Assembly: GCA_964540055.1 (NCBI GenBank)
Contig: CAZILC010000005.1
Coordinates: 5,597 to 69,596 of the forward strand
DNA: 64,000 nucleotides
Reading direction: 5' to 3'
Source: an uncultured Gammaproteobacteria bacterium
GTDB taxonomy: Bacteria > Patescibacteriota > Microgenomatia > Levybacterales > UBA12049
The position numbers and the translations under genes are program-made. Below, in pieces: positions 11,541 to 60,737 of the stretch (positions within the stretch are counted from its first letter, which is position 1; the number at the start of each line of letters is the position of its first letter). The notes beneath the pieces were generated by a model, which saw only the letters and a program-made list of their open reading frames with translations, ran no database searches and had not been told where the DNA came from.

Positions 11541-12074
11541 GTGAATAATTTCGGAACTGAAATTCTTTTGAATCAATTAAAAGCTGCTCATGGTGCACTT
11601 GAGGGGACCATGGATGGGGTAACTGAAAAAGAAGCTCATTTTATGCCGCCAGGCAATGCTAATCCAATTGCCGGAACATATGCACATCTCGTTTTTTCAG
11701 AAGACGCATTTCTCCATATCTTTCTTAAAAAAACAAAACCACTTTTTGAAACAAAATTTAAAGATAAAACAGGCGCAAGTGAAAATCAGCCCACCGATTG
11801 GGAAAATGCTTATCCAAAATGGTTAAAAGAAGTGCAATTGGATGTAAAGGTCTTTCAAAAATATGCTAAAGCTGTTTTTGCAGAAAGTGAACAATATATT
11901 GCTACGTTAACCGATGAGGATTTACAAAAGGACATTGATATGAGTATGTTTCACATGGGACAAAGAAAAGCATATGATTTTATTGCAAATTTGATAAGTG
12001 GTCATGCCTATCCAATAATGGGGGAAATCTCTGTACTGAAAGGCATTCAAGGTTTGAAAGGATATCCTTTTTAA
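11541..12074 (+). CDS. DinB-superfamily protein (DinB_2-like four-helix bundle)
   Basis: LKAAHGALEGTMDGVTEKEAHFMPPGNANPIAGTYAHLVFSEDAF... GTG start with TGaTATACT 6 nt upstream. Confidence 0.65.
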   Translation: MNNFGTEILLNQLKAAHGALEGTMDGVTEKEAHFMPPGNANPIAGTYAHLVFSEDAFLHIFLKKTKPLFETKFKDKTGASENQPTDWENAYPKWLKEVQLDVKVFQKYAKAVFAESEQYIATLTDEDLQKDIDMSMFHMGQRKAYDFIANLISGHAYPIMGEISVLKGIQGLKGYPF

Positions 12075-18544: not shown

Positions 18545-18554
18545 TGCAAAAAAA

Positions 18555-18917: not shown

Positions 18918-18918
18918 A

Positions 18919-19524
18919 TTATAAAACTCCCATTAAATAAACGATCGTAAAAATGAAAATCCATACAATATCCAAAAAATGCCAGAAAAGACTGAGAAGT
19001 GTAAGCTTTCGGACAATATTTTTGGTCAGACCTTTTTTTGCAACAAAAACTAAACAAACAAACATCCATAATAAACCCGAGGTAATATGAATTCCATGCG
19101 TACCAACGAGGGTAAAAAATGACGAAAGAAAAGCGCTTCGAGTGAATCCGTTTCCTTCAGAGAATAATTTTGTAAACTCGCTTAATTCCAATCCTAAAAA
19201 GGCAAGTCCTAATAAAAAGGTAATACCAAACCATATGAGCACATGCTTTTTTGAGTTTTCATGAGCCGCTAGCATTCCTAATCCTGATGTAAAACTACTT
19301 ACAAGAAGTATCATTGTTTCGGTCAGAGCAAAGGGGAGATTAAAAAGTTCATGGGTACCTGGTCCGTTATACACATTGCCATGAAGAACAGAGTAAGTCG
19401 CAAAAAGTACAGCAAACATCAAAAGGTCAGTCATCAGATAGACCCAAAAACCAAAGACAGTCTTATCGAATGCTGTCTCTTCTATTTGTTCTTTTGTAGG
19501 ATGGGAATTTGTTGCTAATGACAT
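18919..19524 (-). CDS. cyoC: cytochrome o-type quinol oxidase subunit III
   Basis: 201 aa with 5 TM helices; ...FWVYLMTDLLMFAVLFATY..., GTHGIHITSGLLWM, FWHFLDIVWIF. Confidence 0.9.
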   Translation of the reverse strand: MSLATNSHPTKEQIEETAFDKTVFGFWVYLMTDLLMFAVLFATYSVLHGNVYNGPGTHELFNLPFALTETMILLVSSFTSGLGMLAAHENSKKHVLIWFGITFLLGLAFLGLELSEFTKLFSEGNGFTRSAFLSSFFTLVGTHGIHITSGLLWMFVCLVFVAKKGLTKNIVRKLTLLSLFWHFLDIVWIFIFTIVYLMGVL

Positions 19525-19549
19525 ATTTTTTAAACTTAAAACGGAAATC

Positions 19550-21553: not shown

Positions 21554-21554
21554 C

Positions 21555-22469
21555 TTACATCCCCTCCATCTTCGACATAGAATCCGTGTCTGTTTGGCCC
21601 GTTTTCTTAGGTTTTGCCATATAATACATAACTATTGTAGAGAAGAGATGATCCGGTGTCGATGAGTATTCTGTACGTGTTTTGTTCACTTGCGGTTTGG
21701 CAAGTTGATTGAAAGCATCCATGGTAAGTTTATTGCGTGATTTTTGGGTATGTGAGACCCAAGTTGTAAAATCTGTTTGAGACACTGATTTTGCGTCAAA
21801 TATCATATCTGCATAGCCTTCACCATTAATTTCACTAGATGCACCTCGATATTCTCCGATACTGTCTGAGATAAGATGTGTTTGCGTGGCCATGCCGGAC
21901 ATCGCGTAAATCTGTCCACCAAGCTGTGGAATCCAAAAAGACGTCATTGGTGTATCAAAAGCAGTTATTTCAAACACAACAGGTGTCTTTTCAGGAAACT
22001 CTACATAATTCATCGAAGCAATTCCATACTGAGGATAAACAAATAACCATTTCCAACGAAGCGAAAATACCTGAACGATCAGTGGTTTTTTATTTGAATC
22101 TATCGGCACATGGGGATCCAATTTATGGGCACCTATCCAAACCAATCCGGATAAAAGTAACATGATAATTGTAAGAAATCCCCAATAGAAAATTTGTAAT
22201 CCTTTTTGCTCATTCCAATCGGGTTGATAGGAAGCATTTTTATTATTGGCATGGTATCTCGTTCCGACAAAAAACGCAAAGATAAAAACAGGTATTACCC
22301 CAAGCATCATTAAGGCAACTGATAATAAGATAAGATCAAGCTCCTGATGAGCGATCAATCCAGCAGGATTGAGGACTTGCACATTTTTTCCGCTGATGAG
22401 GATCTTAATCAGTAGAAAAATATCAAGAGAAACAAAAAGAACAACGATGAATCTGAACAGCTTTTTCAT
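21555..22469 (-). CDS. cyoA: quinol oxidase subunit II (no CuA site)
   Basis: Two N-terminal TM helices plus a cupredoxin domain. The protein contains no cysteine at all, so a CuA centre is impossible, which indicates the quinol-oxidising type. ATG 22469 is preferred over the GTG at 22472. Confidence 0.9.
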   Translation of the reverse strand: MKKLFRFIVVLFVSLDIFLLIKILISGKNVQVLNPAGLIAHQELDLILLSVALMMLGVIPVFIFAFFVGTRYHANNKNASYQPDWNEQKGLQIFYWGFLTIIMLLLSGLVWIGAHKLDPHVPIDSNKKPLIVQVFSLRWKWLFVYPQYGIASMNYVEFPEKTPVVFEITAFDTPMTSFWIPQLGGQIYAMSGMATQTHLISDSIGEYRGASSEINGEGYADMIFDAKSVSQTDFTTWVSHTQKSRNKLTMDAFNQLAKPQVNKTRTEYSSTPDHLFSTIVMYYMAKPKKTGQTDTDSMSKMEGM

Positions 22470-22551
22470 CACGCAACGCTACATAAATAGTATAGAGGTA
22501 AAATGATCAGATGGTCAAATGGTTTTATGCTTTATATATTATAATAAGTCA

Positions 22552-23610
22552 ATGAATACAGCTCAAACCGATTTTAAAAAGTATTTACAAAATTCAGCGA
22601 AGGAAATTGAAAAAGAATTACTACACATTGCCACATTGTGGAAGAGGGAAAATGAAACGGAACTTTTAGAAGTAAATGCATTAACGAAACGCCTTACCGA
22701 CAGCTGGATTGGTGGAAAAATGTTACGAGGAACACTTGTTAAAATGGGTTTTGAATTGGCAACTAATAAACCTTCTGTTTCAATAATAAAACCTGCTGCT
22801 GCTTTTGAAGTTCTTCACACATCCTTACTTATTCATGATGACATTATCGATAAAAGCCCGCAAAGACGCGGTAAACCCGCTATGCACGTGCATCAGAATG
22901 ACCATTATGGCATATCGCAGGCAATTTGTTTGGGAGATATTGGAATATCACTGAGCGGAAAGCTTATTTCAGAAAGTAATTTCCCGGAACAGAGAAAAAA
23001 CAAGGCACTTACTTATTTTTTCGAAGTCATTAATAACACGCTTCTGGGTGAAATGATGGATGTGGCTAGTGCACAAAAAATGCAACGAACTGAAAAAGAA
23101 GTTCTCACAATTCATATGATGAAAACAGCAAATTACACGTTTGTCGGCCCATTAACTTTTGGCGCGATACTTGCCGGTGCTACGGAGGATTTACTATCCA
23201 AACTCCAACGCTTTGCTGAACCGCTGGGTATCGCTTATCAAATTCGAGACGACATTTTGGGAATATTTGGAAATGAAAAAAAGATTGGTAAATCAACACT
23301 ATCTGACATAGAAGAAAACAAGAGTACATTACTAATCACATTTGCCCTCAAACATGCGAATCAACAACAAAAAAAACTTTTAACTCTTTACTATGGCAAA
23401 AAGGGGATTACAACCAAAGAGCATGAAATAGTTAAAAAAATATTTATGGAAACCGGTGCGTTACGTTATTCACAAAATCACTTAACAAAACTATCCCAAC
23501 AAGCAGAGGCAATAATCTCATCACTAACTGGTGAAGAGCAACTAAAAGAATTACTAAAGCAGCTTGCCAACTCAATTTCTATTCCCTATTCCCAAATCCC
23601 TATTCCCTAA
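22552..23610 (+). CDS. polyprenyl diphosphate synthase (trans-isoprenyl diphosphate synthase family)
   Basis: First Asp-rich motif LLIHDDIIDKS; second motif YQIRDDILGIFG. TATAAT at 22540-22545 lies 6 nt before ATG 22552, which favours this start over the track's 22519. Confidence 0.88.
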   Translation: MNTAQTDFKKYLQNSAKEIEKELLHIATLWKRENETELLEVNALTKRLTDSWIGGKMLRGTLVKMGFELATNKPSVSIIKPAAAFEVLHTSLLIHDDIIDKSPQRRGKPAMHVHQNDHYGISQAICLGDIGISLSGKLISESNFPEQRKNKALTYFFEVINNTLLGEMMDVASAQKMQRTEKEVLTIHMMKTANYTFVGPLTFGAILAGATEDLLSKLQRFAEPLGIAYQIRDDILGIFGNEKKIGKSTLSDIEENKSTLLITFALKHANQQQKKLLTLYYGKKGITTKEHEIVKKIFMETGALRYSQNHLTKLSQQAEAIISSLTGEEQLKELLKQLANSISIPYSQIPIP

Positions 23611-23624
23611 TATATACTATTTAT

Positions 23625-24944
23625 ATGGACAAAGTGCTGCCCGCTTTTTTTGCGCCCGTTAATATCCTTTTTTATGCTATCGTCATCTTTATTATTTATC
23701 ATCTTCTCGTAAAAAAATCTCCGCATCATCTGAGTCAGGAAGAAAAACATGTCGTAGTAGTCGGAGGAGGATTTGCAGGAATCGGTGCAATAATCAAATT
23801 ACGAAAAAAACTCTATGGAGTACCTCACAAAATTACGCTGATTGATAAAAATACCTATCATCTGTTTACCCCGTCATTATACGAACTTGCAACGTCTGAA
23901 GAACCTAAAAAAAATGTCGCGATTCCATTTTCTAAAATATTTTCAAATGGTATTTCGATGGTTCACGAAACCGTTAAAACTATTGATCCGACGACAAACA
24001 CACTCATTCTCAATGACAAATCTACCATTACATACGATTATTTGATTCTCACAGCAGGCAGTCAACCGGCCTTTATGGGTATCCCGGGACTTGAAAAATA
24101 TGGTACCGGATTCAAAACATTAACCGATGCAATGATCATCAAAGACAAAATTAAGAATTTATGCTGTAAAGACGGAAAGTGCAATAGAAAAGTACAAGTT
24201 GTCATCGGCGGTGGAGGATTTGCCGGCTCGGAATTAGCCGCAGAACTTTTAACATATAAAGATCGAATCGCACAACAGCATGGTTTGGATAAAAATTGCC
24301 TGGAAATGACAATCATACAAGGGAGTGATCATTTATTAAACGATCTGGATCCTCGCGTTTCGCACATCGCTGAACATCGGCTTGATGAACCGAATGTGCA
24401 CTTTGCCTTTGGGGGACATATCAAAGAAGTCACGAAAACTGAAGTACGCACAGACAATGGAAAATCTTTTCCCTATGAAATCCTTATTTGGACCGGAGGT
24501 GTTGAACCAAATAGTCTTGCAAAATCCAATAATTTGCCCGTGACACATAGAGGGGGACTGATTGTAAACAACTATCTTCAGGTGAAAGGATTTGATAATA
24601 TTTTTGCGGCCGGAGACATTGCTGCATATGTTAATCCCGAAACTCAAAGACCCGCGCCAAATGTCGCGCAAGTTGCTGAAGAACAGGGAGCAACGGCAGG
24701 TGAAAATGTTGCTGCCATGATTACAAATGAAACAATAAAACCATATCGCTTCCGTCATTGGGGCTACGTCGTTCCTCTCAAAGGCTATTTCGCAGCTGCA
24801 GAATTAATTTATAAAATCCGATTGACAGGTTTTGTAGGTTGGATACTGCAGCAACTCGTTCTGTTACGCTATCTCTTCGGTATTCTTCCTTGGTATAAAG
24901 CACTCAGCCGCTTTGACACGTTCGAAATGGATATGGAGAAATAA
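23625..24944 (+). CDS. ndh: type II NADH:quinone oxidoreductase (NDH-2)
   Basis: Two Rossmann GxGxxG motifs (VVVVGGGFAGIG; VVIGGGGFAGSE), GDIAAY, and N- and C-terminal hydrophobic segments. TATACT lies 6 nt before the ATG. Confidence 0.88.
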   Translation: MDKVLPAFFAPVNILFYAIVIFIIYHLLVKKSPHHLSQEEKHVVVVGGGFAGIGAIIKLRKKLYGVPHKITLIDKNTYHLFTPSLYELATSEEPKKNVAIPFSKIFSNGISMVHETVKTIDPTTNTLILNDKSTITYDYLILTAGSQPAFMGIPGLEKYGTGFKTLTDAMIIKDKIKNLCCKDGKCNRKVQVVIGGGGFAGSELAAELLTYKDRIAQQHGLDKNCLEMTIIQGSDHLLNDLDPRVSHIAEHRLDEPNVHFAFGGHIKEVTKTEVRTDNGKSFPYEILIWTGGVEPNSLAKSNNLPVTHRGGLIVNNYLQVKGFDNIFAAGDIAAYVNPETQRPAPNVAQVAEEQGATAGENVAAMITNETIKPYRFRHWGYVVPLKGYFAAAELIYKIRLTGFVGWILQQLVLLRYLFGILPWYKALSRFDTFEMDMEK

Positions 24945-30647: not shown

Positions 30648-32888
30648 ATGAAACAAATTCTCGCGGCCGTTGGTCTTGTCGTTCTTATCATCACAATTAT
30701 CGCAGTTTATTTTACATGGACACATGTTGATGCCGAATCACAAAGACTCAAAGGAGATATTCAATACAGATCATATCTCGTAGCCGATAGTTTAAAAGGA
30801 ACAGTTGAACCGAATTTTACTAATAAATCGGATCAATATCTCCAGTCCGTTGTCGCAAATTTTGCTGATAAACAACGGCTCGCAGGCATTGCAATCGTTG
30901 ATAACACGGGAAAATATGTTGCCAAATCACCAAGTTTGAATAATGGCATTGCAAAATCCTCAACTTCAAATCAAATTATTACCGATGCGATGGATGGTGA
31001 TCAGGACAATGGAGATTTTGTGACGGTAAATAATAAAAGATATTATATTTATGCTTCCCCCCTTCATGATAAAAAAAGTGTTGTTGGCGGTCTTATCGTT
31101 ATTCAAAATGCAGGGTATATCTCAACGCAGCTGAATGATATCTGGAAAAGTGATTTGTTAAAACTCTTTCTGCAGGCATTTTTACTCTCCCTTGCAATCT
31201 TAATTATTCTCAGATGGATTATATTAATCCCACTTAAAAACCTTGTTGAATCTCTGCAAACCACTAGTCTGGGAACGAATAAAAAGAAATTGCCCAAAGT
31301 GTTTAATAATCCTTTTTTAAGCCCACTCATTAAAGAAGTAGGAACTATTCAGAAAAATTTAATTGAAGCCCGCATAGCGGCAAGTGAAGAAGCCAGGCTT
31401 CGATTGAAAAAATTTGATTCTCCCTGGACAACAGAACGACTGAAAGCCTTTGTCGCAGATATTCTCAAAGACAGAAAAATTTTTGTTGTGTCAAACCGTG
31501 AACCATACGTACATACCAAAGAGGGCAACACAATTGATTATCATTTTCCGGCAAGCGGCATGGTAACAGCAATCGAGCCGATCATGCAGGCAACGGGCGG
31601 CATGTGGATAGCACAAGGCAGTGGAAATGCAGACAAACTGGTTGTTGATGATAACGATACCATTGCTGTTCCACCAGGGGACCCATTATATACATTAAAA
31701 CGAGTCTGGCTTACACCTGAGGAAATCAAAGGTTTTTACGATGGTTTTTCCAATGAAGGAATTTGGCCACTTTGTCATATCGCGCATACGCGTCCGATAT
31801 TTAATAAAGATGATTGGCGGGAATATGTAAAAGTAAATGAAAAATTTGCGAGAACTGTTCTGAAGGAAATAAAAAACGAACAAAATCCGGTAGTCCTGGT
31901 GCAAGATTTTCATTTTGCACTGGTTCCACGACTCGTTAAAGACAAAAGACCTGATGCAACAATCGGCATGTTCTGGCATATCCCATGGCCCAATTCCGAA
32001 TCCTTCAGCATTTGTCCTTGGAAAAAAGAAATAATTGATGGGATGTTGGGTGCTGATATCATCGGGTTTCATACACAAACGCATTGCAATAATTTTATGA
32101 ATACAGTCGGTCGTGAACTCGAAGCACTTCGGGATATGGATACTTTCACCATCACAAAAAATAATCATACGACTGCAGTAAAACCATTTCCGATCAGCAT
32201 TGCATTTTCGAAACGTTCTACAGACCAGGAAAAATCGCAGGACACGCGAAGTAAAGATGCATTAAGAAAGATAGGAGTAAAAACAGATTATGTCGGCATT
32301 GGTGTAGACCGGCTTGATTATACGAAAGGAATAATTGAACGAATGCATGCGATAGAAATATTTCTTACGAAATATCCAGCATATATAGAAAAATTCACCT
32401 TTATCCAGATCTCAGCACCAAGCCGGACAGATATTCCCGAATATAAACAATTCGCAGAAAAAGTTGAGGAAGAAATAAACCGGATCAATAATAAATTTAA
32501 GAAAAATGACTGGAAACCGATACTTTTCCTGTATAAGCATCATTCACATGATGCAATTTATCCGTTGTACCGTGCAGCAAATGTGTGTCTGGTAACGTCA
32601 CTCCATGATGGGATGAATCTTGTTGCAAAGGAATTTGTCGCGGCACGTGATAATGAAAGGGGAGTATTGATCCTTAGCCAATTCACTGGCGCTTCACGCG
32701 AACTACGTGATGCACTTATTATAAACCCCTACAATGGTGAACAAACTGCCGAAGCGATCCATACAGCACTCACCATGAGAAGAGCCGAGCAAACGAGAAG
32801 AATGCGAAGAATGCGAGAAATCCTCCAAAGCTACAACATCTACCGCTGGTCCGCGGAACTTCTCAAAACAATGGTTGAATTGGGATAA
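30648..32888 (+). CDS. otsA: trehalose-6-phosphate synthase (GT20) fused to an N-terminal TM/extracytoplasmic sensor/TM/HAMP-like module
   Basis: The core starts at KIFVVSNREPYVH...GGMWIAQGSG...LKRVWL...FSNEGIWPLCH...VQDFHFALVP and ends ...LHDGMNLVAKEF. Residues 1 to about 265 contain two TM helices flanking about 150 aa, then an amphipathic linker. Confidence 0.9.
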   Translation: MKQILAAVGLVVLIITIIAVYFTWTHVDAESQRLKGDIQYRSYLVADSLKGTVEPNFTNKSDQYLQSVVANFADKQRLAGIAIVDNTGKYVAKSPSLNNGIAKSSTSNQIITDAMDGDQDNGDFVTVNNKRYYIYASPLHDKKSVVGGLIVIQNAGYISTQLNDIWKSDLLKLFLQAFLLSLAILIILRWIILIPLKNLVESLQTTSLGTNKKKLPKVFNNPFLSPLIKEVGTIQKNLIEARIAASEEARLRLKKFDSPWTTERLKAFVADILKDRKIFVVSNREPYVHTKEGNTIDYHFPASGMVTAIEPIMQATGGMWIAQGSGNADKLVVDDNDTIAVPPGDPLYTLKRVWLTPEEIKGFYDGFSNEGIWPLCHIAHTRPIFNKDDWREYVKVNEKFARTVLKEIKNEQNPVVLVQDFHFALVPRLVKDKRPDATIGMFWHIPWPNSESFSICPWKKEIIDGMLGADIIGFHTQTHCNNFMNTVGRELEALRDMDTFTITKNNHTTAVKPFPISIAFSKRSTDQEKSQDTRSKDALRKIGVKTDYVGIGVDRLDYTKGIIERMHAIEIFLTKYPAYIEKFTFIQISAPSRTDIPEYKQFAEKVEEEINRINNKFKKNDWKPILFLYKHHSHDAIYPLYRAANVCLVTSLHDGMNLVAKEFVAARDNERGVLILSQFTGASRELRDALIINPYNGEQTAEAIHTALTMRRAEQTRRMRRMREILQSYNIYRWSAELLKTMVELG

Positions 32889-49647: not shown

Positions 49648-49974
49648 ATGATAAAGGAATTACTGTCCAACTTCACAAGAATTCTCCTAGGTAGCTTTCT
49701 TCCCGAAAACTTTCAACCATATCTCCGAATAATGTTTGCAATTGTTTTTATAACGTTTTTTGTTTACGGGATACAGATAGGAATTGGTACTATTTATACG
49801 TACGCTAACAATCCATCGGCATATAAATCGAGTGAAAAAAACAAAATTTGCAGTGATCTTAACAATACTACAATAAAATATATTTGCAAAAACTCGAGGA
49901 TCTCAAAAGTCGAAGCTCATAAAGTAACTTCATTACTTTCCTTTGTGCAGGATTTACATAAATTAACAAATTGA
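49648..49974 (+). CDS. hypothetical small membrane protein (108 aa)
   Basis: One to two TM helices and its own strong promoter. Its last 58 nt overlap the 3' end of the convergent GT4 gene, so its reality is uncertain. Confidence 0.4.
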   Translation: MIKELLSNFTRILLGSFLPENFQPYLRIMFAIVFITFFVYGIQIGIGTIYTYANNPSAYKSSEKNKICSDLNNTTIKYICKNSRISKVEAHKVTSLLSFVQDLHKLTN

Positions 49975-51176
49975 TCAGCCGCATTATCCCAACTTAGATC
50001 CTGTACATCATGCGCGACGGATCTACTGACTTTTTTATACTCTTCACCATCACAAAGTAATAATTTTATCTTCTTTGCAAGCCCAATTGGATTGTTAGCA
50101 GACGTTATGAGAATCGAATGATCTTTGTCTATCAATCGCGAAACGCCGGTAACATCTGTGGTAATGACAGGCACACCACATGCCATAGCTTCAACAGCGG
50201 TAATACCAAAGGATTCATAGTGAGAGGGCATCACCATCAAATCCGCGGCATTATAATAATCAGGAAGTTCCTCCTGCGTTTTTCTTCCTACAAATTTAAC
50301 AGAGGTTCTGATACCTAATGCTTCCCGGATCTCTGAAAGTTTCTTTAACTCTTTAGGCCATTCCTCCTCGTTATTGGAAATATCTCCACCAACTATCCAC
50401 ACAGTAACTTTAAGCTCCGGTCTTGCTGTTAAAAGAATTTTAAGTGAGTAGAGCAAAACATCAATACCCTTAAGTGGTTCAATTCTTCCCACAAATAAAA
50501 TTAACTTTTCATCAACATTCGCGCCGATGCTTTTTTTGGCTTCAATTTTATCAGTAGGTTTAAAAAGATCAAGATTTACACCGGGCGTCAAAACAGCAAT
50601 TTTTTCAGGATCTCCATCATATAAGTATTCAATATATTGTGCATCAGTTTCACTTGTCGCAATAATCTGATCTGCTGTTTTGACAAGCTGCTGTTCGATT
50701 TGGATACGTTCTTTACTTTCCCGCTCCTCATCACTGCGAGCAACCAAATTTTTCATCAACCCCAATGTATGAAAAGTCATAACAAGTGGAATTCCGTACT
50801 TCTTTTTTATTTCAACTCCTGCAATTCCTGAAAGATAATAATGGCAATTAACAATACGGTAGGAAATATTTTCCTTTTCAACAAAGCTAAATATATAATC
50901 AGTAAACTCGGGAATATACTTTTCTATTTCTTTTTTTGAAAGCGGTTCTTCTGGCCCTGCTGGAACATGAATAACTCGGACATGTTCATTTACCTGAACA
51001 ATTCTCGGACTATCCGACGATTGCGAACGGGTAAAAATATCGAGAAAATATCCTTTTTTCGCAAGTGCCTTGGAGAGTTCGAGCACATAAATATTCATGC
51101 CACCAATTTCGGCATCTGTTTCATCCGAGATTGGACACGTATGATAAGAAATAACAGCAAAACGCTTTGAGTTCAT
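49917..51176 (-). CDS. GT4 glycosyltransferase, MshA-like (D-inositol-3-phosphate glycosyltransferase family)
   Basis: RFAVISYHTCP...EIGGMNIYVLELSKALAKKGYFLDIFTR, VRVIHVPAGP...LSK, CHYYLSG, TFHTLGLMKN, DPEKIAVLTPGVNLDLF, MPSHYESFGITAVEAMACGVPVI. TATAAT lies 6 nt before ATG 51176. Confidence 0.85.
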   Translation of the reverse strand: MNSKRFAVISYHTCPISDETDAEIGGMNIYVLELSKALAKKGYFLDIFTRSQSSDSPRIVQVNEHVRVIHVPAGPEEPLSKKEIEKYIPEFTDYIFSFVEKENISYRIVNCHYYLSGIAGVEIKKKYGIPLVMTFHTLGLMKNLVARSDEERESKERIQIEQQLVKTADQIIATSETDAQYIEYLYDGDPEKIAVLTPGVNLDLFKPTDKIEAKKSIGANVDEKLILFVGRIEPLKGIDVLLYSLKILLTARPELKVTVWIVGGDISNNEEEWPKELKKLSEIREALGIRTSVKFVGRKTQEELPDYYNAADLMVMPSHYESFGITAVEAMACGVPVITTDVTGVSRLIDKDHSILITSANNPIGLAKKIKLLLCDGEEYKKVSRSVAHDVQDLSWDNAADQFVNLCKSCTKESNEVTL

Positions 51177-51211: not shown

Positions 51212-51808
51212 ATGCAAACCATAATCTACCTCATTAGACACGGAGAAGTAAAAAATCCAGATGCAATACTTTACGGAAGACTACCGCATTTTGGTTTATC
51301 TGAAAATGGAAGAAAAGAAGTAGCACAATCTGCTGAATTTTTAGCAGACAAACATATCGATGCAATCTATTCCGGACCACTTGAGAGAGCCAAACAAACA
51401 GCTGAAATAATTCAAAAAAAACTCGGCATCCCAGAAATCTATTTCAACGACCAATTAACTGAAGTAAAAACTTCATATGAAGGAAAAAAATTCAAGACGT
51501 TAGACAAGCTTCAATCTGAAATTTATTTAAAACCACTTGATGCATCTGATGAAACACTTGAGGATATTGCCCAGCGTATGATCATTTTTCTCCATGGCGT
51601 AATCAACAAAAACCCGGGAAACCATGTAGTAATTGTCAGTCACGGAGATCCGATCATGGCTCTGAAAGCGAAAATCAAACATAAAACCAAGCCGCTTGAA
51701 TTTATGAGCTTTAAAACAGATGACTATATCCAACATGCAGAAGTGTATGAAGTTACCAGTGAAGATAATGAACTTTCAATAAAAGCCGTATTCAAACCGC
51801 TCGAGTAG
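51212..51808 (+). CDS. histidine phosphatase (phosphoglycerate mutase) family protein
   Basis: IIYLIRHGEV (RHG catalytic motif), ...SGPLERAKQTAEII..., ...VSHGDPI. Start at ATG 51212, 36 bp from the divergent GT4 start. Confidence 0.85.
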   Translation: MQTIIYLIRHGEVKNPDAILYGRLPHFGLSENGRKEVAQSAEFLADKHIDAIYSGPLERAKQTAEIIQKKLGIPEIYFNDQLTEVKTSYEGKKFKTLDKLQSEIYLKPLDASDETLEDIAQRMIIFLHGVINKNPGNHVVIVSHGDPIMALKAKIKHKTKPLEFMSFKTDDYIQHAEVYEVTSEDNELSIKAVFKPLE

Positions 51809-51875: not shown

Positions 51876-54134
51876 ATGCCAGCTGAAAGACCAGCAAACC
51901 ATGACAGAGGAGAACAATCGAAAAGGGCCAGTTGCGCGCAATTTTCTGTTGACACCTTTGTGCCACGTATGATCCATCCTCTTCTTTCGCCAAATATAAT
52001 CCAAAATTATCTTCGAGATGATGTATATTTGAGGCCAGGTATAGCAGACATGAGTCTTCATACTGTAGACCGATCAGTTGCAAGTACCATAGCAGGAATT
52101 GGTAATCCAGTGACTTATTTCACGAGTGAAAGAAGTCGGCAATTACATCAAGCTGAGGATCAAGCAAGAAGAGGATTTGGTCCGGCTGTTCTGGATCGTG
52201 CAAGAGAGTTGGAGATAAGTTTTACCTTAAACTCAGCACAAGCAACTACACGACTTGCAACTCCTTCTGAAAATGTAGCGGGAGACCTGCATCGTGAACA
52301 TGGTTATTTTGGTACTCTTGGTTGGAACGTTTACTCAGCAATCGATGATGGCAGCCCTGTCCTACTACTACCGCAAACGAGCAGAAAAGGGTCTACCTTC
52401 TTTCAAGCTGTAGATCTCAATGAACTACATTCCCGTGATCCTGAATTTCTTCCACAACGGATCAGAGACCATGAAGAAAGATATGCACTCAGAACCCTTG
52501 CCGATACTGTTGCATATAATCATGGTCTCCATGAGGTCCCAGAAGATGCATTAATTCCCGATACAATTCTTGAGGTAGCCCGACTTTCCGATCCTGCAGA
52601 AGCAGGAAGAGAACTTGGCTCTATGGCAGGTTATCTTTATTTTCTGGCAATGGTTGGAGACTTTCCTAATACCATTAAAGAGTTTCAAGAGGATATCTAT
52701 CAAAGAAGCACACCGATGGAGGAAGGAAAAACTGCATATATTGAAAGTTATCTAAGCCACATGGGAGAATGCCCATCCACCTCTGAGGCCGCCCGACAAA
52801 GGAACTCAATGCTCACACAGGCATATATTACGCTGGGGCGTCTTGATGTACGAGGTGCAGAAAAAGAAGGACTTCCGCAAAAGGATAGTCCTGTAACCCA
52901 AGTATTACGCAACCCCAGTTCATATACCTATAATGTCGATGAAAGAGATCAGATTAATACAGCTAGAAAAGACTATGCACAACAAGTCAGTAGATTCTTA
53001 GATCAAACGCAAGATATTACCGATAGAGATGCATTAACCGAAGCACTTGCACGAGATTTGCCTGAAACACATGAGGCTCTTACAAGGTTTCAGGAATGGT
53101 TAGGAACAGGGTTTAGTAATTTTGATGCTTTTCTTGAAGGGACGGTTCGCCGTATGTCTTGGAGTCGTGAAGGGTTTACCTTAGAAAGTATAAATGCGGC
53201 ACTAAGAGAAGAATTACGACTGACCGGTCTTGGCGCCAGGGGAGACTTTGAAGGAGTTCATATTCCCTATACTCCCCGTGATGTTTCGATCCACAACCCA
53301 CATCTTGAGGTAGTTCTTCCGCTTTTAGTAATACAAGAACTCCAGACACAAAATAACAAACGCGCCCTGAGGGATGCTCATCTTACCGTATTGCAGCCAC
53401 ACAATGATGAGAGGGCTCAACAATTACAACAATCGCGTCATGAACTTGCACAGTCAGTCGAAGACGACATCCGTAATTATGACCGATTATTGCAGGTATC
53501 TGAGGAGCTTAAGGACACATATGCCGCTTTTAAAGATCTAACAGGTATCACTGATGATGATATTATTCATTTGATAGATCTAGCCAAATCTCACACTCGT
53601 GATGAAGCTCATTTTCCTTACGGGCTATATAAAGCACTGGTAAATACCCTCTACATGGAGAAAGCGGGATTAATAAACACAAAAACCGCACCATTTAGGA
53701 CATTTCTTGGATCGCTTTTTCCCAATTATCCGGCAGCAGTATGGGAAAATCTTCACTCTGAATCTTTACAACCGACGGATGAAGCATTTGGTACTCAATT
53801 TACGGATTCGTTACGCGAGGCACTTGTTTTAACATCCGAATCTGAAGGTCCGGTCACCTGGCACTCAGCTGCACAACCCGCTTCAGTCAATCTTACTTAT
53901 CATAGACTTACATCACTCCCCCCAGAAGGACTTGTGACAGCAGTGGATGCAGTTCTTCTGGCTTTTGCGCCACCTACACCAGAAACAAGTGCAGAAGTAA
54001 TGGATACCCGAACTATCCAGGAACGTGCAGCCTATGACTTTTTACATCGACTAATTACTCACGCTGCTCCAGGTGAATTAAATGATGCAGAAAGAGAACT
54101 GCGACAACAATACGACGAGCTTAAAAGTAATTGA
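51876..54134 (+). CDS. large hypothetical ORFan (752 aa), Arg/Glu/Leu-rich, G+C-richer
   Basis: Long uninterrupted frame with a strong promoter. No TM segment, signal peptide or recognisable catalytic motif. N-terminus MPAERPANHDRG. Confidence 0.65.
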   Translation: MPAERPANHDRGEQSKRASCAQFSVDTFVPRMIHPLLSPNIIQNYLRDDVYLRPGIADMSLHTVDRSVASTIAGIGNPVTYFTSERSRQLHQAEDQARRGFGPAVLDRARELEISFTLNSAQATTRLATPSENVAGDLHREHGYFGTLGWNVYSAIDDGSPVLLLPQTSRKGSTFFQAVDLNELHSRDPEFLPQRIRDHEERYALRTLADTVAYNHGLHEVPEDALIPDTILEVARLSDPAEAGRELGSMAGYLYFLAMVGDFPNTIKEFQEDIYQRSTPMEEGKTAYIESYLSHMGECPSTSEAARQRNSMLTQAYITLGRLDVRGAEKEGLPQKDSPVTQVLRNPSSYTYNVDERDQINTARKDYAQQVSRFLDQTQDITDRDALTEALARDLPETHEALTRFQEWLGTGFSNFDAFLEGTVRRMSWSREGFTLESINAALREELRLTGLGARGDFEGVHIPYTPRDVSIHNPHLEVVLPLLVIQELQTQNNKRALRDAHLTVLQPHNDERAQQLQQSRHELAQSVEDDIRNYDRLLQVSEELKDTYAAFKDLTGITDDDIIHLIDLAKSHTRDEAHFPYGLYKALVNTLYMEKAGLINTKTAPFRTFLGSLFPNYPAAVWENLHSESLQPTDEAFGTQFTDSLREALVLTSESEGPVTWHSAAQPASVNLTYHRLTSLPPEGLVTAVDAVLLAFAPPTPETSAEVMDTRTIQERAAYDFLHRLITHAAPGELNDAERELRQQYDELKSN

Positions 54135-54214: not shown

Positions 54215-54622
54215 ATGAATTTTCTTGCAATTATCGTTGCGGCAATTGTAAATGTCGTACTTGGTGCATTATGGTATTCACCCGCACTTTTTGCCAAACC
54301 ATGGGCAAAAGGAGTAGGGATGACAAAAGAACAAATGGCCAAAGGTGCTAAAATGACACCAAAAATGTTTGTTCCGCCACTCTTAGCAGCAATTGTAACA
54401 AGTTACGTTATGGCATGGTTTTTTCATGCTCTGAATGTCACATCGCTTGGCGATGGAATATGGATTGCGTTTTTGGCTTGGCTTGGATTTACAACTACTG
54501 CACAAGTACTTAATTCCTGGGTATTTTCAAATGGCTGGCCAAAAGAAGTATATTTTATTAATACAGGATACCACCTCGTTGTATTCTGTATCATGGGCGC
54601 CATTCTTGCGGTTTGGAGATAA
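54215..54622 (+). CDS. DUF1761 family membrane protein
   Basis: MNFLAIIVAAIVNVVLGALWYSPALFAKPW... with 4 TM helices. SD GGGGGTGA lies 6 nt before the ATG. Confidence 0.72.
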   Translation: MNFLAIIVAAIVNVVLGALWYSPALFAKPWAKGVGMTKEQMAKGAKMTPKMFVPPLLAAIVTSYVMAWFFHALNVTSLGDGIWIAFLAWLGFTTTAQVLNSWVFSNGWPKEVYFINTGYHLVVFCIMGAILAVWR

Positions 54623-54679: not shown

Positions 54680-55828
54680 ATGAAACTCTATAACACGCTT
54701 ACGGATACAATACAAACATTTACATCCTTAGCTACTAAAGAAATCAAACTCTACGTCTGCGGTATCACTCCTTATGACACGACACATCTGGGACATGCTT
54801 TTACGTATACCATTTTTGATGTTCTCTACCGATTTTTGGAATTTCAGGGTTACAAAGTAAACTATACACAAAACGTCACGGATATTGATGACGATATTTT
54901 AAAACGGGCCAAAGAAGTAGAGGAGGATTGGCAAAAACTCGGTACATTTTGGACAAATAAATTTTTAAATGATATGAAATCGCTTCGAAACATCCCGCCA
55001 ACACATTATGTTAAGGCAACCGAAACTATATCGACGATTATTTCATTTATCGAAAAATTAGAAGCCGATGGATTCGCTTATGAAAAAAACGGCAATGTGT
55101 ATTTTTCGGTTCAAAAAGATCCCGAATACGGCAAACTTTCAAAATATACCCGAGATCAAATGATAAAGCTTTCTAAAGAACGAGGAGCAAATCCAGATGA
55201 CCCGAACAAACATGATCCGCTGGATTTTATCCTTTGGCAAAAAAGTAAAAATGACGAACCTTTTTGGAATTCCAAATGGGGAAAAGGTCGTCCGGGTTGG
55301 CATATCGAATGTTCCGCAATGGCTTACAAATACCTTGACAAAAAGATTGACATTCATGGCGGCGGAAGCGATCTGCGCTATCCCCATCATGAAAGTGAGA
55401 TTGCCCAGTCAGAACAATTTACCGGAGAAAAACCCTTTTCGCAATTTTGGATGCATATCGGCATGGTAGAGTATAAGGGAGAAAAAATGTCAAAATCACT
55501 CGGCAATCTCGTGATGGTTTCGGATTTGTTGAAAACCTACTCACCAAACACCATCCGCTATCTACTTTTATCCCATCACTACCGGGAACCCTGGGAATTT
55601 TTCCAGGATGAACTTGATAAAGCAGATCAAACAATGAAACAGCTTGAATCCAAAATCAAAACGAACAAATACACTCAGAAAGAAAAACCAAATTTAGAAG
55701 AGTTTACCAATGCATTATCAGAAGATCTAAACACGCCAAAGGCACTTGAAATAATTAAGAAAACTATAAAGAAGAGAAATATTACCGACGCGAAGAAGAT
55801 GCTCGGGATCCTTGGGATCGAGTTGTAG
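54680..55828 (+). CDS. cysteinyl-tRNA synthetase paralogue with MshC-like architecture (catalytic core only, no anticodon-binding domain)
   Basis: LYVCGITPYDTTHLGHAFTY, NVTDIDDDIL, GRPGWHIECS, HGGGSDLRYPHHESE and KMSKS are present. The protein ends about 35 aa after DLNTPKAL (382 aa). Start chosen at MKLYNTLTD (54680). Confidence 0.88.
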   Translation: MKLYNTLTDTIQTFTSLATKEIKLYVCGITPYDTTHLGHAFTYTIFDVLYRFLEFQGYKVNYTQNVTDIDDDILKRAKEVEEDWQKLGTFWTNKFLNDMKSLRNIPPTHYVKATETISTIISFIEKLEADGFAYEKNGNVYFSVQKDPEYGKLSKYTRDQMIKLSKERGANPDDPNKHDPLDFILWQKSKNDEPFWNSKWGKGRPGWHIECSAMAYKYLDKKIDIHGGGSDLRYPHHESEIAQSEQFTGEKPFSQFWMHIGMVEYKGEKMSKSLGNLVMVSDLLKTYSPNTIRYLLLSHHYREPWEFFQDELDKADQTMKQLESKIKTNKYTQKEKPNLEEFTNALSEDLNTPKALEIIKKTIKKRNITDAKKMLGILGIEL

Positions 55829-56786
55829 TAGAACGTGTCGCAAATGTATGCATTCTATCTGAAAGTTTGGTACTGACACTTATAAGACCCGCCTTGGATT
55901 GCACATCATGTAACGTTCCATTTTCTCTGGCAAGAAAAGCGACAACTGTTTCCAGGGTACTGTGCCCGTTAAATGAAAGATCCAACCCATTTCGGATAAA
56001 CATCCTCTTATCTGTATTCTCCGTTGTTGTCTTTGAACTTCTGGTAACTTGAATGAGTCCGCTCCTGTGACCTTGATCGGTAGTCACAGCTACAAGATCT
56101 GCCCGAAGATCCGGATCAACATTATGATCTTGCTGTATAGATGAGGAAAAAACAAGCACGCGACCTCTTGGATCAGAATTTGGAAGACCAATACCTAACA
56201 ATTCGTGTTGCAAGTTTATTATTCTCCGATCTAAAAATTCATATTTTCCAAAATCGGCATATACCTTGCCTAAAAGTTTTACTATTCCACTATTTGTTTG
56301 CTGTTGAGCTAAAGCAATTTCTCTTGCTGTCTGCTGCGTTCCACTGGACCAACGAGCCGCAACTGTCATAACAGGCAAACTTGCTAGTGCTTCCTCTGTT
56401 CGAAAACCAAGATCCATTAATCGTGCACTTCTATAATCTGTAGCTTTTTTACCGGCACTCTCAAATTGTCTCTTAGATCGTTCCCACATTTCTTGAGCAT
56501 GCTTCAAAGCTCGCATTCGTTCATGAATAGAAATCTTACCCGTATGCAGAGCTGCGCTTACTGCTGCCCAACCTGAAGCATAGCCATATAATGGATGCTC
56601 ATGTGCAACACTTGCCATATCGAAAGATTGGAAGAGAAGTTTTTGAGGTGGAACCACATTAGTATCCAGAATCAGCATGTAGTCTCTAAAACTCGGACTT
56701 TTTCTTCTAACTTGTAAGACTCGCTCTAAACCTTCAAAGGGAAGCTCAACCGTCCTTCCAGGCTGTTTGCCACGCTCCGCCGCCAT
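55782..56786 (-). CDS. hypothetical ORFan (334 aa), Arg/Ser/Thr-rich
   Basis: TATAGT lies 6 nt before ATG 56786 (leaderless pattern). N-terminus MAAERGKQPGR. The last 47 nt overlap the convergent CysRS-like gene. I recognise no domain. Confidence 0.6.
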   Translation of the reverse strand: MAAERGKQPGRTVELPFEGLERVLQVRRKSPSFRDYMLILDTNVVPPQKLLFQSFDMASVAHEHPLYGYASGWAAVSAALHTGKISIHERMRALKHAQEMWERSKRQFESAGKKATDYRSARLMDLGFRTEEALASLPVMTVAARWSSGTQQTAREIALAQQQTNSGIVKLLGKVYADFGKYEFLDRRIINLQHELLGIGLPNSDPRGRVLVFSSSIQQDHNVDPDLRADLVAVTTDQGHRSGLIQVTRSSKTTTENTDKRMFIRNGLDLSFNGHSTLETVVAFLARENGTLHDVQSKAGLISVSTKLSDRMHTFATRSTTTRSQGSRASSSRR

Positions 56787-59399: not shown

Positions 59400-59428
59400 T
59401 TGACTTCCAATAATTGTAGGTTTAAAAT
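59400..59428 (+). promoter_or_regulatory. promoter TTGACT-17-TAAAAT for the PfkB-like gene
   Basis: TTGACT at 59400-59405 (this is the track's apparent TTG start) and TAAAAT at 59423-59428. Confidence 0.55.
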
Positions 59429-59465
59429 TCCATTGAGCTCTTTAATTATTACAGAATTCTTACAG

Positions 59466-60737
59466 ATGAAAGGAAGTATCGAAGCACCCGTACTTGTTGA
59501 AAGGTCTTTCGCTGGTTTGAGACCAGATAGAGTACGACACAATGGACCGGTACTTATACCATATACTGGACCACTACGAATTGCAGGCGTCGGCCCATCC
59601 AATGTTGATATTCACGTTAGAGGATTAGATCCCCAAAAAACCCCAGATGAAGTTTACAGAAGAGCAACCGTAGGCGGAGTACTTTTAAGTAAAATTGCAG
59701 TTCCAGAAGTACGTAAAATAGAAGAATTGGAAGAAATTGTTGTCGCAGAGGGTGCCGAAACATTTAAAACTCCAGCAGGAAATATAGGAACCATTTTAGG
59801 AGTTATGTCTTCGTTATTAGAAGAAGGAACTGTAAGAGTAGATACACCTGTAGGAAGAGATCCTGACGGCAAATTAATCAGAAGAGACCTTAGAACGAGA
59901 GATAATCTACAATCTGTTTTTCACAGAATTAAGGGAAGAACACCAGTGAGTATAGTAATTCCAGCATGGATAGACGAAAAACCAGACAGGCTTGCTTTCA
60001 CCCACAAGCCCCAAAATATACAATCAAAATTTAAGGAATATTTGCCACAAGATCTGGATTTTGCCGTTGTTAACTCGTTAGCAGGACCACATTGGGCGCA
60101 GGATTTACGAGAGGGAGTTGACGAATTAACTAACCGCATACCACCAGTACCATATATTTATACTCCGGGTTCCTTGCAACTTGGTGCAATTATTGATGCC
60201 TCAGATCCTGGAAAAAGAGACCAAACAAAAATTGATGCTGTCTATCATGCAGTGAGGAATGCACATATACTCAGCCTTGATGTGGGTGAACTCAAAACGC
60301 TCATGAAAGGACACGGTTATCAAAAGGAGTATCTTGATGGGCTTCATAAGGAACTACTGTTAAAACAAGCACATGATGTTCTCGGATCAAAAGTAATAAT
60401 GGTTACTGATGGCAAACATGGCTCCTGGGGTTATGACAGTATAAAAGATCCTCATAATGTTTGGCATATTGGAATGAAGCCTGATAAACCTGGTGCTGAA
60501 ATTAAAAGTACTATTGGCGCAGGAGACAGATTTATTGGTGCAGCTGGTTTACAGTACTTTATGTCAGGTGATATACGAGAAGCTCTTCGTTGGGGAACTG
60601 TCAGCGGTTCACAAGCTGTGTTGGTGTATGGTGCCCGAGATAAACTTCCTACAAGAGATGCGTTCACTAGTTTGCTTGCGGAGCGCGATACGCCAAGAGC
60701 CTACATTGACAAAGCAAGACTTATCTCAACTAAATAA
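59466..60737 (+). CDS. divergent, enlarged PfkB/ribokinase-family sugar or nucleoside kinase
   Basis: LRIAGVGPSNVDIHV (N-terminal beta strand), TPAGNIGTILG (GG-like lid motif), a C-terminal KSTIGAGDRFIGAAG (the PfkB GAGD catalytic motif), and VSGSQAV. 423 aa counted from ATG 59466. Confidence 0.6.
   Translation: MKGSIEAPVLVERSFAGLRPDRVRHNGPVLIPYTGPLRIAGVGPSNVDIHVRGLDPQKTPDEVYRRATVGGVLLSKIAVPEVRKIEELEEIVVAEGAETFKTPAGNIGTILGVMSSLLEEGTVRVDTPVGRDPDGKLIRRDLRTRDNLQSVFHRIKGRTPVSIVIPAWIDEKPDRLAFTHKPQNIQSKFKEYLPQDLDFAVVNSLAGPHWAQDLREGVDELTNRIPPVPYIYTPGSLQLGAIIDASDPGKRDQTKIDAVYHAVRNAHILSLDVGELKTLMKGHGYQKEYLDGLHKELLLKQAHDVLGSKVIMVTDGKHGSWGYDSIKDPHNVWHIGMKPDKPGAEIKSTIGAGDRFIGAAGLQYFMSGDIREALRWGTVSGSQAVLVYGARDKLPTRDAFTSLLAERDTPRAYIDKARLISTK

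What the first reader, a model, noticed from the sequence alone, without database searches (positions are those of the whole stretch)
54680..55828. CysRS paralogue with MshC-type architecture in a non-actinobacterial-looking genome
The 382-aa product keeps the full class I CysRS catalytic core: YVCGITPYDTTHLGHAFTY, NVTDIDDDIL, GRPGWHIECS, HGGGSDLRYPHHESE and KMSKS. It stops about 35 residues after the DLNTPKAL helix. The C-terminal anticodon-binding domain of canonical bacterial CysRS (roughly 460 aa in E. coli) is therefore missing. The length, the local signatures (GITPYD-x-THLGHA) and the C-terminal ...LGILGIEL fit my recollection of mycobacterial MshC (...GITPYDATHLGHA..., ending ...LLGVDL). 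MshC is the CysRS-derived ligase that joins Cys to GlcN-Ins in mycothiol synthesis. An MshA-like GT4 lies 3.5 kb upstream and a DinB-superfamily protein (a fold used by thiol S-transferases) is at 11541. Either this AT-rich, sortase- and Rpf-bearing organism makes a mycothiol-like thiol, or it charges tRNA-Cys with an anticodon-domain-less enzyme. Both possibilities are unusual.
Basis: partly seen in the sequence, partly recalled or inferred. Interest (0 to 1): 0.7.

Follow-up and report, generated by a model that had tools for sequence, protein, structure and literature searches.

The report
MshC-like cysteine ligase cluster in CPR
A shortened relative of cysteinyl-tRNA synthetase in a candidate-phyla-radiation-type bacterium groups with the mycothiol enzyme MshC and sits beside mycothiol-type sugar-pathway genes, which suggests these tiny bacteria make a cysteine-sugar protective thiol, although the gene could still be their tRNA-charging enzyme.

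Summary
Window 54680-55828 (+) encodes a 382-aa class I CysRS-type protein with an intact catalytic core and no C-terminal anticodon-binding domain. The short length is conserved in hundreds of homologues named as Patescibacteria or Microgenomates.

In NJ trees it falls in a clade (97% bootstrap) with Chloroflexota short forms and true actinobacterial MshC, apart from canonical CysRS. MshC is nested inside this clade. All members lack the anticodon domain, the canonical CP1 'GAR' motif and four basic residues that are near-invariant in canonical CysRS. The window protein still keeps CysRS-type zinc-site residues that MshC lost.

Gene context points to a thiol pathway:
- An MshA-like GT4 and a sugar-phosphate-type phosphatase are adjacent in all seven distinct relatives with upstream sequence intact.
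- In other Microgenomates an LmbE/PIG-L deacetylase is its divergent neighbour.
- Two proteins fuse the ligase to a PIG-L domain.
- Canonical CysRS control loci show none of this.

Best reading (about 0.5, or 0.7 including a dual-function version): an MshC-type cysteine ligase making a Cys-GlcN-X thiol. Main rival (0.25): it is the housekeeping, anticodon-domain-less CysRS. I could not test whether a second cysS exists. I found no publication on this.

The parts
54680..55828 (+). 382-aa CysRS-derived, anticodon-domain-less cysteine ligase of the MshC clade. It has HIGH and KMSKS motifs and zinc ligands C27, C211, H236 and E240 (window numbering).
   Evidence: families, PDB alignments; conservation, AF2 model, fold match; signatures, phylogeny; no separate anticodon-domain ORF
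49917..51176 (-). MshA-like GT4 glycosyltransferase, transcribed divergently from the phosphatase-ligase unit. It probably acts on a phosphorylated acceptor.
   Evidence: GT4 Pfam domains; TIGR03449 MshA 344 bits, next family 124; C. glutamicum MshA 3c48/3c4q, E 2e-71. N25, K78, Y110, H133, T134, R154, R231, K236, E316 and E324 are invariant in six CPR copies (residue roles are from my memory of the MshA structure paper). Adjacent to the ligase in L001, L002, L003, L013, L016/17 and L105.
51212..51808 (+). Histidine-phosphatase-superfamily phosphatase. The likely start is the ATG at 51212 (the listed ORF begins at TTG 51167). It is a candidate for dephosphorylating the GT4 product, the MshA2-like step.
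   Evidence: His_Phos_1, E 4e-31; best PDB match PhoE phosphatase 1ebb/1h2e; translation. Directly upstream of and co-directional with the ligase in L001 and L105. Replaced by a Cof-type HAD sugar-phosphatase in L016/L017.
59400..60737 (+). PfkB-family kinase in the conserved neighbourhood. Tentative only: it could supply a phosphorylated acceptor.
   Evidence: PfkB domain. Syntenic in L001 and L013. Specificity could not be assigned.
11541..12074 (+). DinB_2 superfamily protein. Tentative: a possible thiol S-transferase.
   Evidence: DinB_2 E 1e-11; Pfam MST E 2e-4; MST_Rv0443 29.9 bits, cut-off 170. Weak and not linked by synteny.

Best explanation
The gene encodes a cysteine-activating ligase of the MshC lineage, not a standard tRNA synthetase.

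Shown: the core needed to bind zinc, cysteine and ATP and to form Cys-AMP is intact.

Inferred: it transfers cysteine to the free amine of a glucosamine-containing acceptor (GlcN-X), as MshC does with GlcN-inositol. The proposed acceptor pathway is:
1. The adjacent MshA-like GT4 adds GlcNAc to a phosphorylated acceptor.
2. The adjacent His_Phos phosphatase removes the phosphate.
3. An LmbE/PIG-L deacetylase exposes the amine. This gene lies outside the window. It is adjacent to or fused with the ligase in relatives.

The product would be a Cys-GlcN-X low-molecular-weight thiol of the mycothiol/bacillithiol type. X is unknown. Inositol phosphate is suggested only by the MshA-like acceptor-site residues. 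This reading predicts a separate canonical CysRS elsewhere in the genome.
For: 1. Phylogeny. A split holding all 37 sequences with the ER..P insertion (CPR, Chloroflexota, fusion proteins, true MshC) and none of 42 canonical CysRS appears in 97% of 200 NJ bootstraps. The insertion columns were excluded from that analysis. MshC is nested inside the clade.

2. Shared losses of tRNA-recognition features with MshC:
- the anticodon domain;
- the canonical CP1 'xGAR' motif, which Mukai et al. (PMC5389517) place at the site that recognises the 1:72 base pair, replaced here by ..ERG.xPDDPxK;
- R42, K73, R168 and K185, which are 88-100% conserved in 108 canonical CysRS.

3. Gene context:
- GT4-phosphatase-ligase is conserved in the window and in L001, L002, L003, L013/14, L016/17 and L105, at 61-73% protein identity.
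- In L016/17 the His_Phos is replaced non-orthologously by a HAD sugar-phosphatase.
- A divergent PIG-L/ligase pair occurs in Daviesbacteria L022, L023 and L024 with different flanking genes, and in L031.
- Two ligase-PIG-L fusion proteins, 56% identical to each other, exist (P0128, P0283).
- About 50 canonical CysRS loci have no PIG-L or MshA-like GT4 within 8 kb.

4. Partner enzymes. The only NCBIfam matches of the PIG-L partners are BshB2, MshB, Mca and BshB1. The GT4's best matches are MshA.

5. The genome encodes a haem-copper quinol oxidase, so it is exposed to oxygen.
Against: - The protein passes the curated cysS cut-off (427.8 > 340) and fails the MshC cut-off (405.4 < 485.1). NCBI names its homologues cysteine--tRNA ligase.
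- It keeps 18 of 25 positions that are conserved in canonical CysRS but lost in true MshC, including H224, zinc ligand E238, Q241, S242 and W254.
- No second cysS, LmbE, GNAT or Ino1 gene lies in the 64-kb window. Whole genomes could not be fetched, so the predicted canonical CysRS is unverified.
- Part of the synteny could be inherited gene order, since the cell-wall genes VanW, YkuD and the transglycosylase are just as syntenic.
- Chloroflexota members have no GT4 or PIG-L within 10 kb.
- Natural anticodon-domain-less CysRS that charge tRNA do exist (CysRS*).
Confidence: 0.5

Rival explanations
1. It is the organism's only, housekeeping cysteinyl-tRNA synthetase. A minimal form lacking the anticodon domain charges tRNA-Cys through the acceptor end and tertiary core. 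The neighbouring GT4, phosphatase and PIG-L genes are functionally unrelated.
For: It scores above the curated TIGR00435 cut-off. It keeps the canonical zinc site and the HHExEIAQSE motif that MshC lost. The family is highly conserved and abundant in small-genome Patescibacteria. No other CysRS homologue lies in the window. Anticodon-domain-less CysRS* and an engineered deletion variant support translation (PMC5389517).
Against: It does not explain the recurrent adjacency and fusion with LmbE deacetylases, or the MshA-like GT4 plus interchangeable phosphatases, none of which occur at canonical CysRS loci. It lost four invariant basic residues and the CP1 motif together with MshC. It branches with MshC.
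Confidence: 0.25
2. It is bifunctional. It is the sole CysRS-family enzyme, it charges tRNA-Cys, and it also ligates cysteine to a GlcN-X acceptor. That would represent the ancestral state from which actinobacterial MshC specialised after duplication.
For: Its character is mixed. It has a CysRS-type zinc site and cysS-level HMM score, yet it belongs to the MshC clade, carries the CP1 insertion and has pathway neighbours. NCBIfam MshC and cysS scores vary continuously across the short clade. The genomes are small.
Against: There is no direct evidence. One active site would need two very different acceptors. The four basic residues conserved in canonical CysRS are lost. It is less parsimonious than a single function.
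Confidence: 0.2
3. The ligase aminoacylates a GlcN-bearing envelope glycoconjugate rather than making a soluble thiol. The model would be a GlcN-inositol-phospholipid or wall polymer made by a GT4 and a PIG-L, as in the first steps of GPI-anchor synthesis.
For: The cluster is embedded among cell-wall genes: VanW, YkuD L,D-transpeptidase and an Rpf-like transglycosylase. GT4 plus PIG-L is also the logic of GlcN-PI synthesis (established knowledge).
Against: The GT4 resembles soluble MshA and sucrose-phosphate synthase, not PIG-A, and it is paired with soluble sugar-phosphate phosphatases. The PIG-L partners match thiol-pathway deacetylases best.
Confidence: 0.05

Closest known systems
MshC (L-cysteine:GlcN-Ins ligase, EC 6.3.1.13; TIGR03447; PDB 3c8z, 8hfm)
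   Same: Same clade (97% bootstrap). Same truncated architecture and near-identical fold (rmsd 1.9 A). It has the GITPYD-THLGHA and QNVTD motifs, the same CP1 insertion with conserved M..ER..P..K, and the same loss of R42, K73, R168 and K185. It has a linked MshA-like GT4, and in relatives an MshB-family deacetylase.
   Different: It falls below the curated MshC cut-off and outside the true-MshC subclade (100% bootstrap). It keeps H224, the fourth zinc ligand E238, Q241, S242 and W254, where MshC has Q and HHE[YM]xAA. The host is Patescibacteria, not Actinobacteria. The pathway genes are clustered or fused, whereas msh genes are dispersed. The acceptor is unknown, and mshD and ino1 were not seen.
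Canonical bacterial/archaeal CysRS (TIGR00435; PDB 1li5, 1u0b, 8qhp)
   Same: 40-50% identity over the catalytic core. The HIGH and KMSKS motifs, zinc ligands C28, C209, H234 and E238, and the HHExEIAQSE motif are present. It scores above the cysS cut-off.
   Different: It has no anticodon-binding domain and no CP1 'GAR' motif. Four basic residues that are near-invariant in canonical CysRS are replaced. It branches apart from 42 canonical sequences.
CysRS* of Desulfobacterales (Mukai et al. 2017, PMC5389517)
   Same: A natural CysRS-family protein without the anticodon domain and with an altered CP1 motif.
   Different: CysRS* is tied to selC*/selB* genes and a dedicated tRNA. No tRNA or selB-like gene accompanies this ligase. 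It is an independent lineage.
Bacillithiol pathway (BshA GT4, BshB LmbE deacetylase, BshC)
   Same: The same three-step logic: GT4 glycosylation, LmbE deacetylation and cysteine addition. The CPR PIG-L partner scores best against BshB2.
   Different: BshC is unrelated to CysRS. The GT4 here is far closer to MshA (244 bits) than to BshA (52 bits), and an extra phosphatase step is implied.

Membership tests
MshC (TIGR03447) | Class I CysRS-type catalytic core with HIGH and KMSKS motifs and Cys/Cys/His zinc ligands | tested here: met
MshC (TIGR03447) | [quoted passage not shown] | tested here: met
MshC (TIGR03447) | Score at or above the curated equivalog cut-off (485.1 bits) | tested here: not met
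   405.4 bits. True MshC P0223 scores 517.7.
MshC (TIGR03447) | Branches with MshC rather than with canonical CysRS | tested here: met
   97% NJ bootstrap for the joint clade, but the protein lies outside the true-MshC subclade. NJ only; no ML tree was made.
MshC (TIGR03447) | MshC-specific active-site substitutions (H224Q; loss of zinc ligand E238; HHE[YM]xAA) | tested here: not met
MshC (TIGR03447) | Co-occurrence with mshA, mshB, mshD and ino1 | tested here: inconclusive
   An MshA-like GT4 is adjacent. An LmbE gene is adjacent or fused only in relatives. No LmbE, GNAT or Ino1 lies in the window. The rest of the genome was not seen.
MshC (TIGR03447) | [quoted passage not shown] | not testable with these tools
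   Needs an enzyme assay.
Canonical CysRS (TIGR00435) | Score at or above the curated cut-off (340 bits) | tested here: met
   427.8 bits, covering model positions 1-381 of 466
Canonical CysRS (TIGR00435) | Anticodon-binding helical bundle plus C-terminal alpha/beta domain | tested here: not met
Canonical CysRS (TIGR00435) | CP1 'GAR' motif and conserved basic residues R42, K73, R168, K185 | tested here: not met
   Their role in tRNA contact is inferred, apart from the CP1 motif (PMC5389517).
Canonical CysRS (TIGR00435) | Only CysRS-family gene in the genome; charges tRNA-Cys | not testable with these tools
   It is the only homologue in the 64-kb window. Whole genomes could not be fetched.
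CysRS* (selC*-dedicated) | Genetic linkage to selB* and a selC*-type tRNA-Cys | tested here: not met
   The nearest tRNA genes are about 5 kb away and are tRNA-Gly and tRNA-Phe. No selB-like neighbour is present.

The most novel reading that the evidence does not exclude
This is the only CysRS-family enzyme of these Patescibacteria and it does both jobs. It would charge tRNA-Cys without an anticodon domain or CP1 motif, and it would ligate cysteine to a GlcN-X acceptor made by the neighbouring MshA-like GT4, phosphatase and LmbE enzymes. That would make it a living intermediate in the birth of MshC, and it would show that CPR bacteria make their own mycothiol/bacillithiol-type thiol.
Probability: 0.2. 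Interest if true: 0.9.

Novelty: new variant of a known kind. Interest (0 to 1): 0.72.

Why it matters
1. Patescibacteria are regarded as biosynthetically minimal, and one groundwater study in the searched library calls their oxidative-stress mechanisms 'largely unknown' (PMC8672522 abstract). A dedicated low-molecular-weight thiol pathway would be a new physiological trait. Mycothiol is regarded as actinobacterial (e.g. PMC9437257).

2. A large non-actinobacterial sister and ancestor group of MshC, in CPR and Chloroflexota, makes it possible to test how a tRNA synthetase became a small-molecule ligase, including which residues switch the acceptor.

3. The conserved phosphatase between the MshA-like and MshC-like genes, either His_Phos or a Cof-type HAD, gives a concrete candidate type for MshA2, the mycothiol phosphatase. 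To my knowledge its gene has not been identified.

4. Practical point: NCBI calls these proteins cysteine--tRNA ligase and JGI calls them MshC. cysS (TIGR00435) is, to my recollection, a GTDB single-copy marker, so misassignment could affect completeness estimates and metabolic calls for CPR genomes.

Tried and rejected
- Exact look-up of the window protein's contig found nothing on record. Cluster look-ups gave almost no organism names.
- The single genome-contig scan returned 12 loci and not the source genome. Whole genomes cannot be fetched, so I could not test for a second cysS. Matching 'longest_contig' values across hit lists recovered only PIG-L/ligase pairs, not a canonical CysRS.
- Ten literature searches found nothing on short CysRS, mycothiol or bacillithiol in CPR. 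The MshC structure paper PMC2628295 is not held.
- Anticodon domain as a separate ORF: rejected.
- CysRS*-type system: rejected, because no linked tRNA or selB is present.
- PfkB as a myo-inositol kinase: no support.
- Pyr_redox_2 (23625-24944) as a thiol-disulfide reductase: only generic matches, and it lies beside the oxidase operon, so I did not use it as evidence.
- The metagenome scan used very general peptide patterns and returned mostly canonical CysRS, which I used as controls.
- A first bootstrap test used a badly defined 'short' set containing canonical sequences with unrelated insertions and gave 0%. I redefined the set by the ER..P motif.
- Fold comparison cannot separate CysRS from MshC, since the TM-scores are equal.

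Full report
**1. The observation**

Window 54680-55828 (+) is an intact ORF of 382 aa (389 aa from an upstream ATG). Homologues begin at MKLYN, so 54680 is the likely start.

- Pfam finds the CysRS catalytic domain at residues 14-315 (E 1e-112) and only a sub-threshold piece of DALR_2.
- NCBIfam TIGR00435 (cysS) aligns to model positions 1-381 of 466, so the last ~85 positions are missing.
- An AlphaFold2 model built on 56 homologues is confident (pLDDT 93.7, pTM 0.92).
- The model superposes on M. smegmatis MshC over nearly the whole target (3c8z: TMt 0.87, rmsd 1.9 A). It covers only 0.77 of tRNA-bound E. coli CysRS (1u0b).
- The short length is a family property. The best 120 database homologues are almost all 368-403 aa at 58-86% identity.
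- No ORF in any frame of the 64-kb window matches a profile of canonical CysRS C-termini, apart from the first helix inside the gene itself.

Where sources name the homologues, the names are Levybacteria, Daviesbacteria, 'Patescibacteria group' and Saccharimonadales. NCBI calls them cysteine--tRNA ligase and JGI calls them MshC. I infer the organism is a Patescibacteria (CPR) bacterium of the Microgenomates type.

**2. Family scores do not settle the function**

| Protein | cysS model (cut-off 340) | MshC model (cut-off 485.1) |
|---|---|---|
| Window protein | 427.8 | 405.4 |
| True MshC (P0223) | 280 | 518 |
| Actinobacterial-side short forms | 335-362 | 391-428 |
| Chloroflexota short forms | 368-387 | 378-401 |
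| CPR member (P0105) | 441 | 367 |

The scores form a continuum across related short proteins.

**3. Phylogeny and signatures**

An exhaustive search of 1.84 billion cluster representatives returned a set of diverse 375-435-aa proteins first, followed by canonical 450-500-aa CysRS.

In the alignment, all short forms and MshC share these features:
- G[IV]TPYD-TH[LI]GHA;
- QNVTD;
- a 4-5-residue insertion in the CP1 domain (..M..L..ERG.xPDDPxK; MshC has FAERGGDPDRPGK), where canonical enzymes have a conserved xGAR-V[DE] motif.

NJ trees group all of them. I repeated the analysis with the insertion columns removed. A split holding all 37 ER..P sequences (CPR, Chloroflexota, two fusion proteins, eight true MshC) and none of 42 canonical CysRS occurs in 97% of 200 bootstraps. 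The non-MshC members are never monophyletic without MshC. True MshC is a 100%-supported long-branch subclade. So MshC appears to have arisen within this short clade, and the window protein does not branch inside canonical CysRS.

Column signatures are mixed:
- 25 columns are at least 85% conserved in 108 canonical CysRS but not kept in true MshC. The CPR group retains the canonical residue at 18 of them, including H224, zinc ligand E238, Q241, S242 and W254 (E. coli numbering).
- Four basic residues that are 88-100% conserved in canonical CysRS (R42, K73, R168, K185) are replaced in the whole clade. CPR has F, D, N/D and Q at these positions. MshC has A, P and D at the first three and a variable residue at K185.
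- Eight other conserved basic positions, including those of the KMSKS motif, are kept in all groups.

Both families make Cys-AMP and differ only in the acceptor. I therefore infer that the four lost basic residues, the CP1 motif and the anticodon domain are tRNA-binding elements that were shed together at the base of the clade. Mukai et al. assign the CP1 motif to recognition of the first acceptor base pair (PMC5389517). This inference has not been checked on a structure.

**4. Gene context**

The GT4 at 49917-51176 (-) is specifically MshA-like:
- TIGR03449 gives 344 bits over its full length, against 124 bits for the next family.
- C. glutamicum MshA is the best PDB match (E 2e-71), followed by a sucrose-phosphate-synthase-like protein. 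BshA is far behind.
- The residues I recall as binding inositol phosphate and UDP-GlcNAc in MshA are invariant in six CPR copies.

A histidine-phosphatase gene (about 51212-51808) starts 35 bp away on the other strand. Its best PDB match is the PhoE phosphatase.

In relatives the order is GT4 (-), His_Phos (+), ligase (+), VanW (-), YkuD, transglycosylase:
- The phosphatase and ligase are separated by only 12-38 bp in L105 and L001.
- This order holds in L001, L002, L003, L013/14 (a 1.32-Mb contig) and L105, at 65-73% ligase identity.
- In L016/17 the His_Phos is missing and a Cof-type HAD sugar-phosphatase follows the ligase. This is a non-orthologous replacement, which argues that selection favours keeping a phosphatase in the cluster.

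In the window itself the cluster is interrupted by two ORFs with no family match and a DUF1761 gene.

A second kind of link appears in other Microgenomates:
- In Daviesbacteria GCA_001776905.1 (L022, ligase 60% identical), an LmbE/PIG-L deacetylase gene lies 22 bp away, transcribed divergently.
- The same pair occurs in L023 and L024 with unrelated flanking genes, and in L031.
- This PIG-L family is conserved across Microgenomates (712 hits).
- Its only NCBIfam matches are BshB2, MshB, Mca and BshB1.

A third link is gene fusion. Two proteins, 56% identical to each other (P0128 of 634 aa and P0283 of 648 aa), carry the short ligase fused to a C-terminal PIG-L domain.

As a control, about 50 canonical CysRS loci from metagenomes have neither a PIG-L nor an MshA-like GT4 within 8 kb.

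Together the partners are an MshA-like GT4, a phosphatase, an LmbE deacetylase and a CysRS-derived ligase. These match the MshA, MshA2, MshB and MshC steps of mycothiol synthesis (pathway as described in PMC9736012).

**5. What is missing**

- The window has no LmbE, GNAT (MshD) or Ino1 gene and only one CysRS homologue.
- The DinB_2 protein is only weakly MST-like.
- The PfkB kinase in the conserved neighbourhood cannot be assigned a substrate.
- Chloroflexota members of the clade show no GT4 or PIG-L nearby.
- I could not fetch whole genomes, so I could not check whether a canonical CysRS coexists with this gene.
- Anticodon-domain-less CysRS that charge tRNA are known (CysRS*), so a housekeeping role is not excluded.

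**6. Verdict**

| Reading | Probability |
|---|---|
| Dedicated MshC-type cysteine ligase making a Cys-GlcN-X thiol | 0.5 |
| Same ligase activity plus tRNA charging (bifunctional) | 0.2 |
| Sole housekeeping CysRS, neighbours unrelated | 0.25 |
| Aminoacylation of an envelope glycoconjugate | 0.05 |

The acceptor is unknown, so 'mycothiol' itself is not shown.

It is not a member of curated MshC. It fails the cut-off and lacks the MshC-specific active-site changes. It also lacks features conserved in canonical CysRS. I class it as a new variant: a CPR/Chloroflexota sister and ancestor group of MshC. Ten full-text searches found no description of it.

The genome also carries a quinol oxidase operon, so it probably sees oxygen, which gives a protective thiol a plausible use.

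Noticed in passing
window 51876-54134 (+) and 55782-56786 (-): Two ORFs (752 aa and 334 aa) with no Pfam match interrupt the otherwise conserved GT4-phosphatase-ligase-VanW order. Their GC is 0.43-0.44 against 0.38 for the window. They are not similar to each other and are absent from all related loci. The 334-aa ORF overlaps the ligase 3' end by 47 bp on the opposite strand. They may be recent insertions.
   Followed up: partly
window 17690-22472 (-), 22519-24944 (+): A haem-copper quinol-oxidase-type operon (COX2-like 21555-22472, COX1 19550-21553, COX3 18919-19524), a UbiA-family (haem O synthase-like) gene at 17690-18544, a polyprenyl synthase and a Pyr_redox_2 flavoprotein. A complete-genome paper on a Microgenomates member states that CPR bacteria studied to date lack cytochrome oxidases (PMC7143001), so this is notable for the lineage.
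   Followed up: no
window 30648-32888 (+): A trehalose-6-phosphate-synthase-type GT20 domain (residues 277-741) is fused to an N-terminal Cache_WalK-like sensor region. This is an unusual architecture.
   Followed up: no
L016/L017 11275-12117 (+): In this relative the His_Phos gene between the GT4 and the ligase is absent. A Cof-type HAD-IIB sugar-phosphatase follows the ligase instead, a non-orthologous phosphatase replacement.
   Followed up: yes
L019 94-1998; L020 3255-5201: Single ORFs fuse the short CysRS-like ligase to a C-terminal PIG-L/LmbE deacetylase domain (P0128, P0283; 56% identical to each other). L020's neighbours include an archaeal-type helicase domain, so the host lineage is unclear.
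   Followed up: partly
L018 10001-11200: A short-clade member (P0135, 399 aa, HHECEVAQSE motif) lies in a 4.59-Mb genome next to thrS-HIT-pgsA-acyltransferase-pimA-like genes. This is an actinobacterial-type arrangement (from my knowledge of M. tuberculosis Rv2610c-2614c). It may be an early-branching MshC or that organism's CysRS.
   Followed up: partly
L001, L002, L003 (record titles): Species-representative MAGs carrying the CPR-type cluster are titled Candidatus Sulfotelmatobacter, Gammaproteobacteria and Acidiferrales. These names do not fit the gene content and the Patescibacteria-named homologues. Likely causes are mislabelling or bin contamination.
   Followed up: no
window 54215-54622 (+); L016 3345-3770 (-): A DUF1761 membrane protein lies immediately upstream of the ligase in the window and about 6 kb upstream in L016/L017. 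Its function is unknown.
   Followed up: no
window 1846-2490 (-), 2904-3500 (+), 6510-9608 (-): Two sortase genes lie close to a 1032-aa apiosidase-like/GH5-type protein with collagen-binding-like and fn3 domains. This suggests a sortase-anchored surface glycosidase.
   Followed up: no
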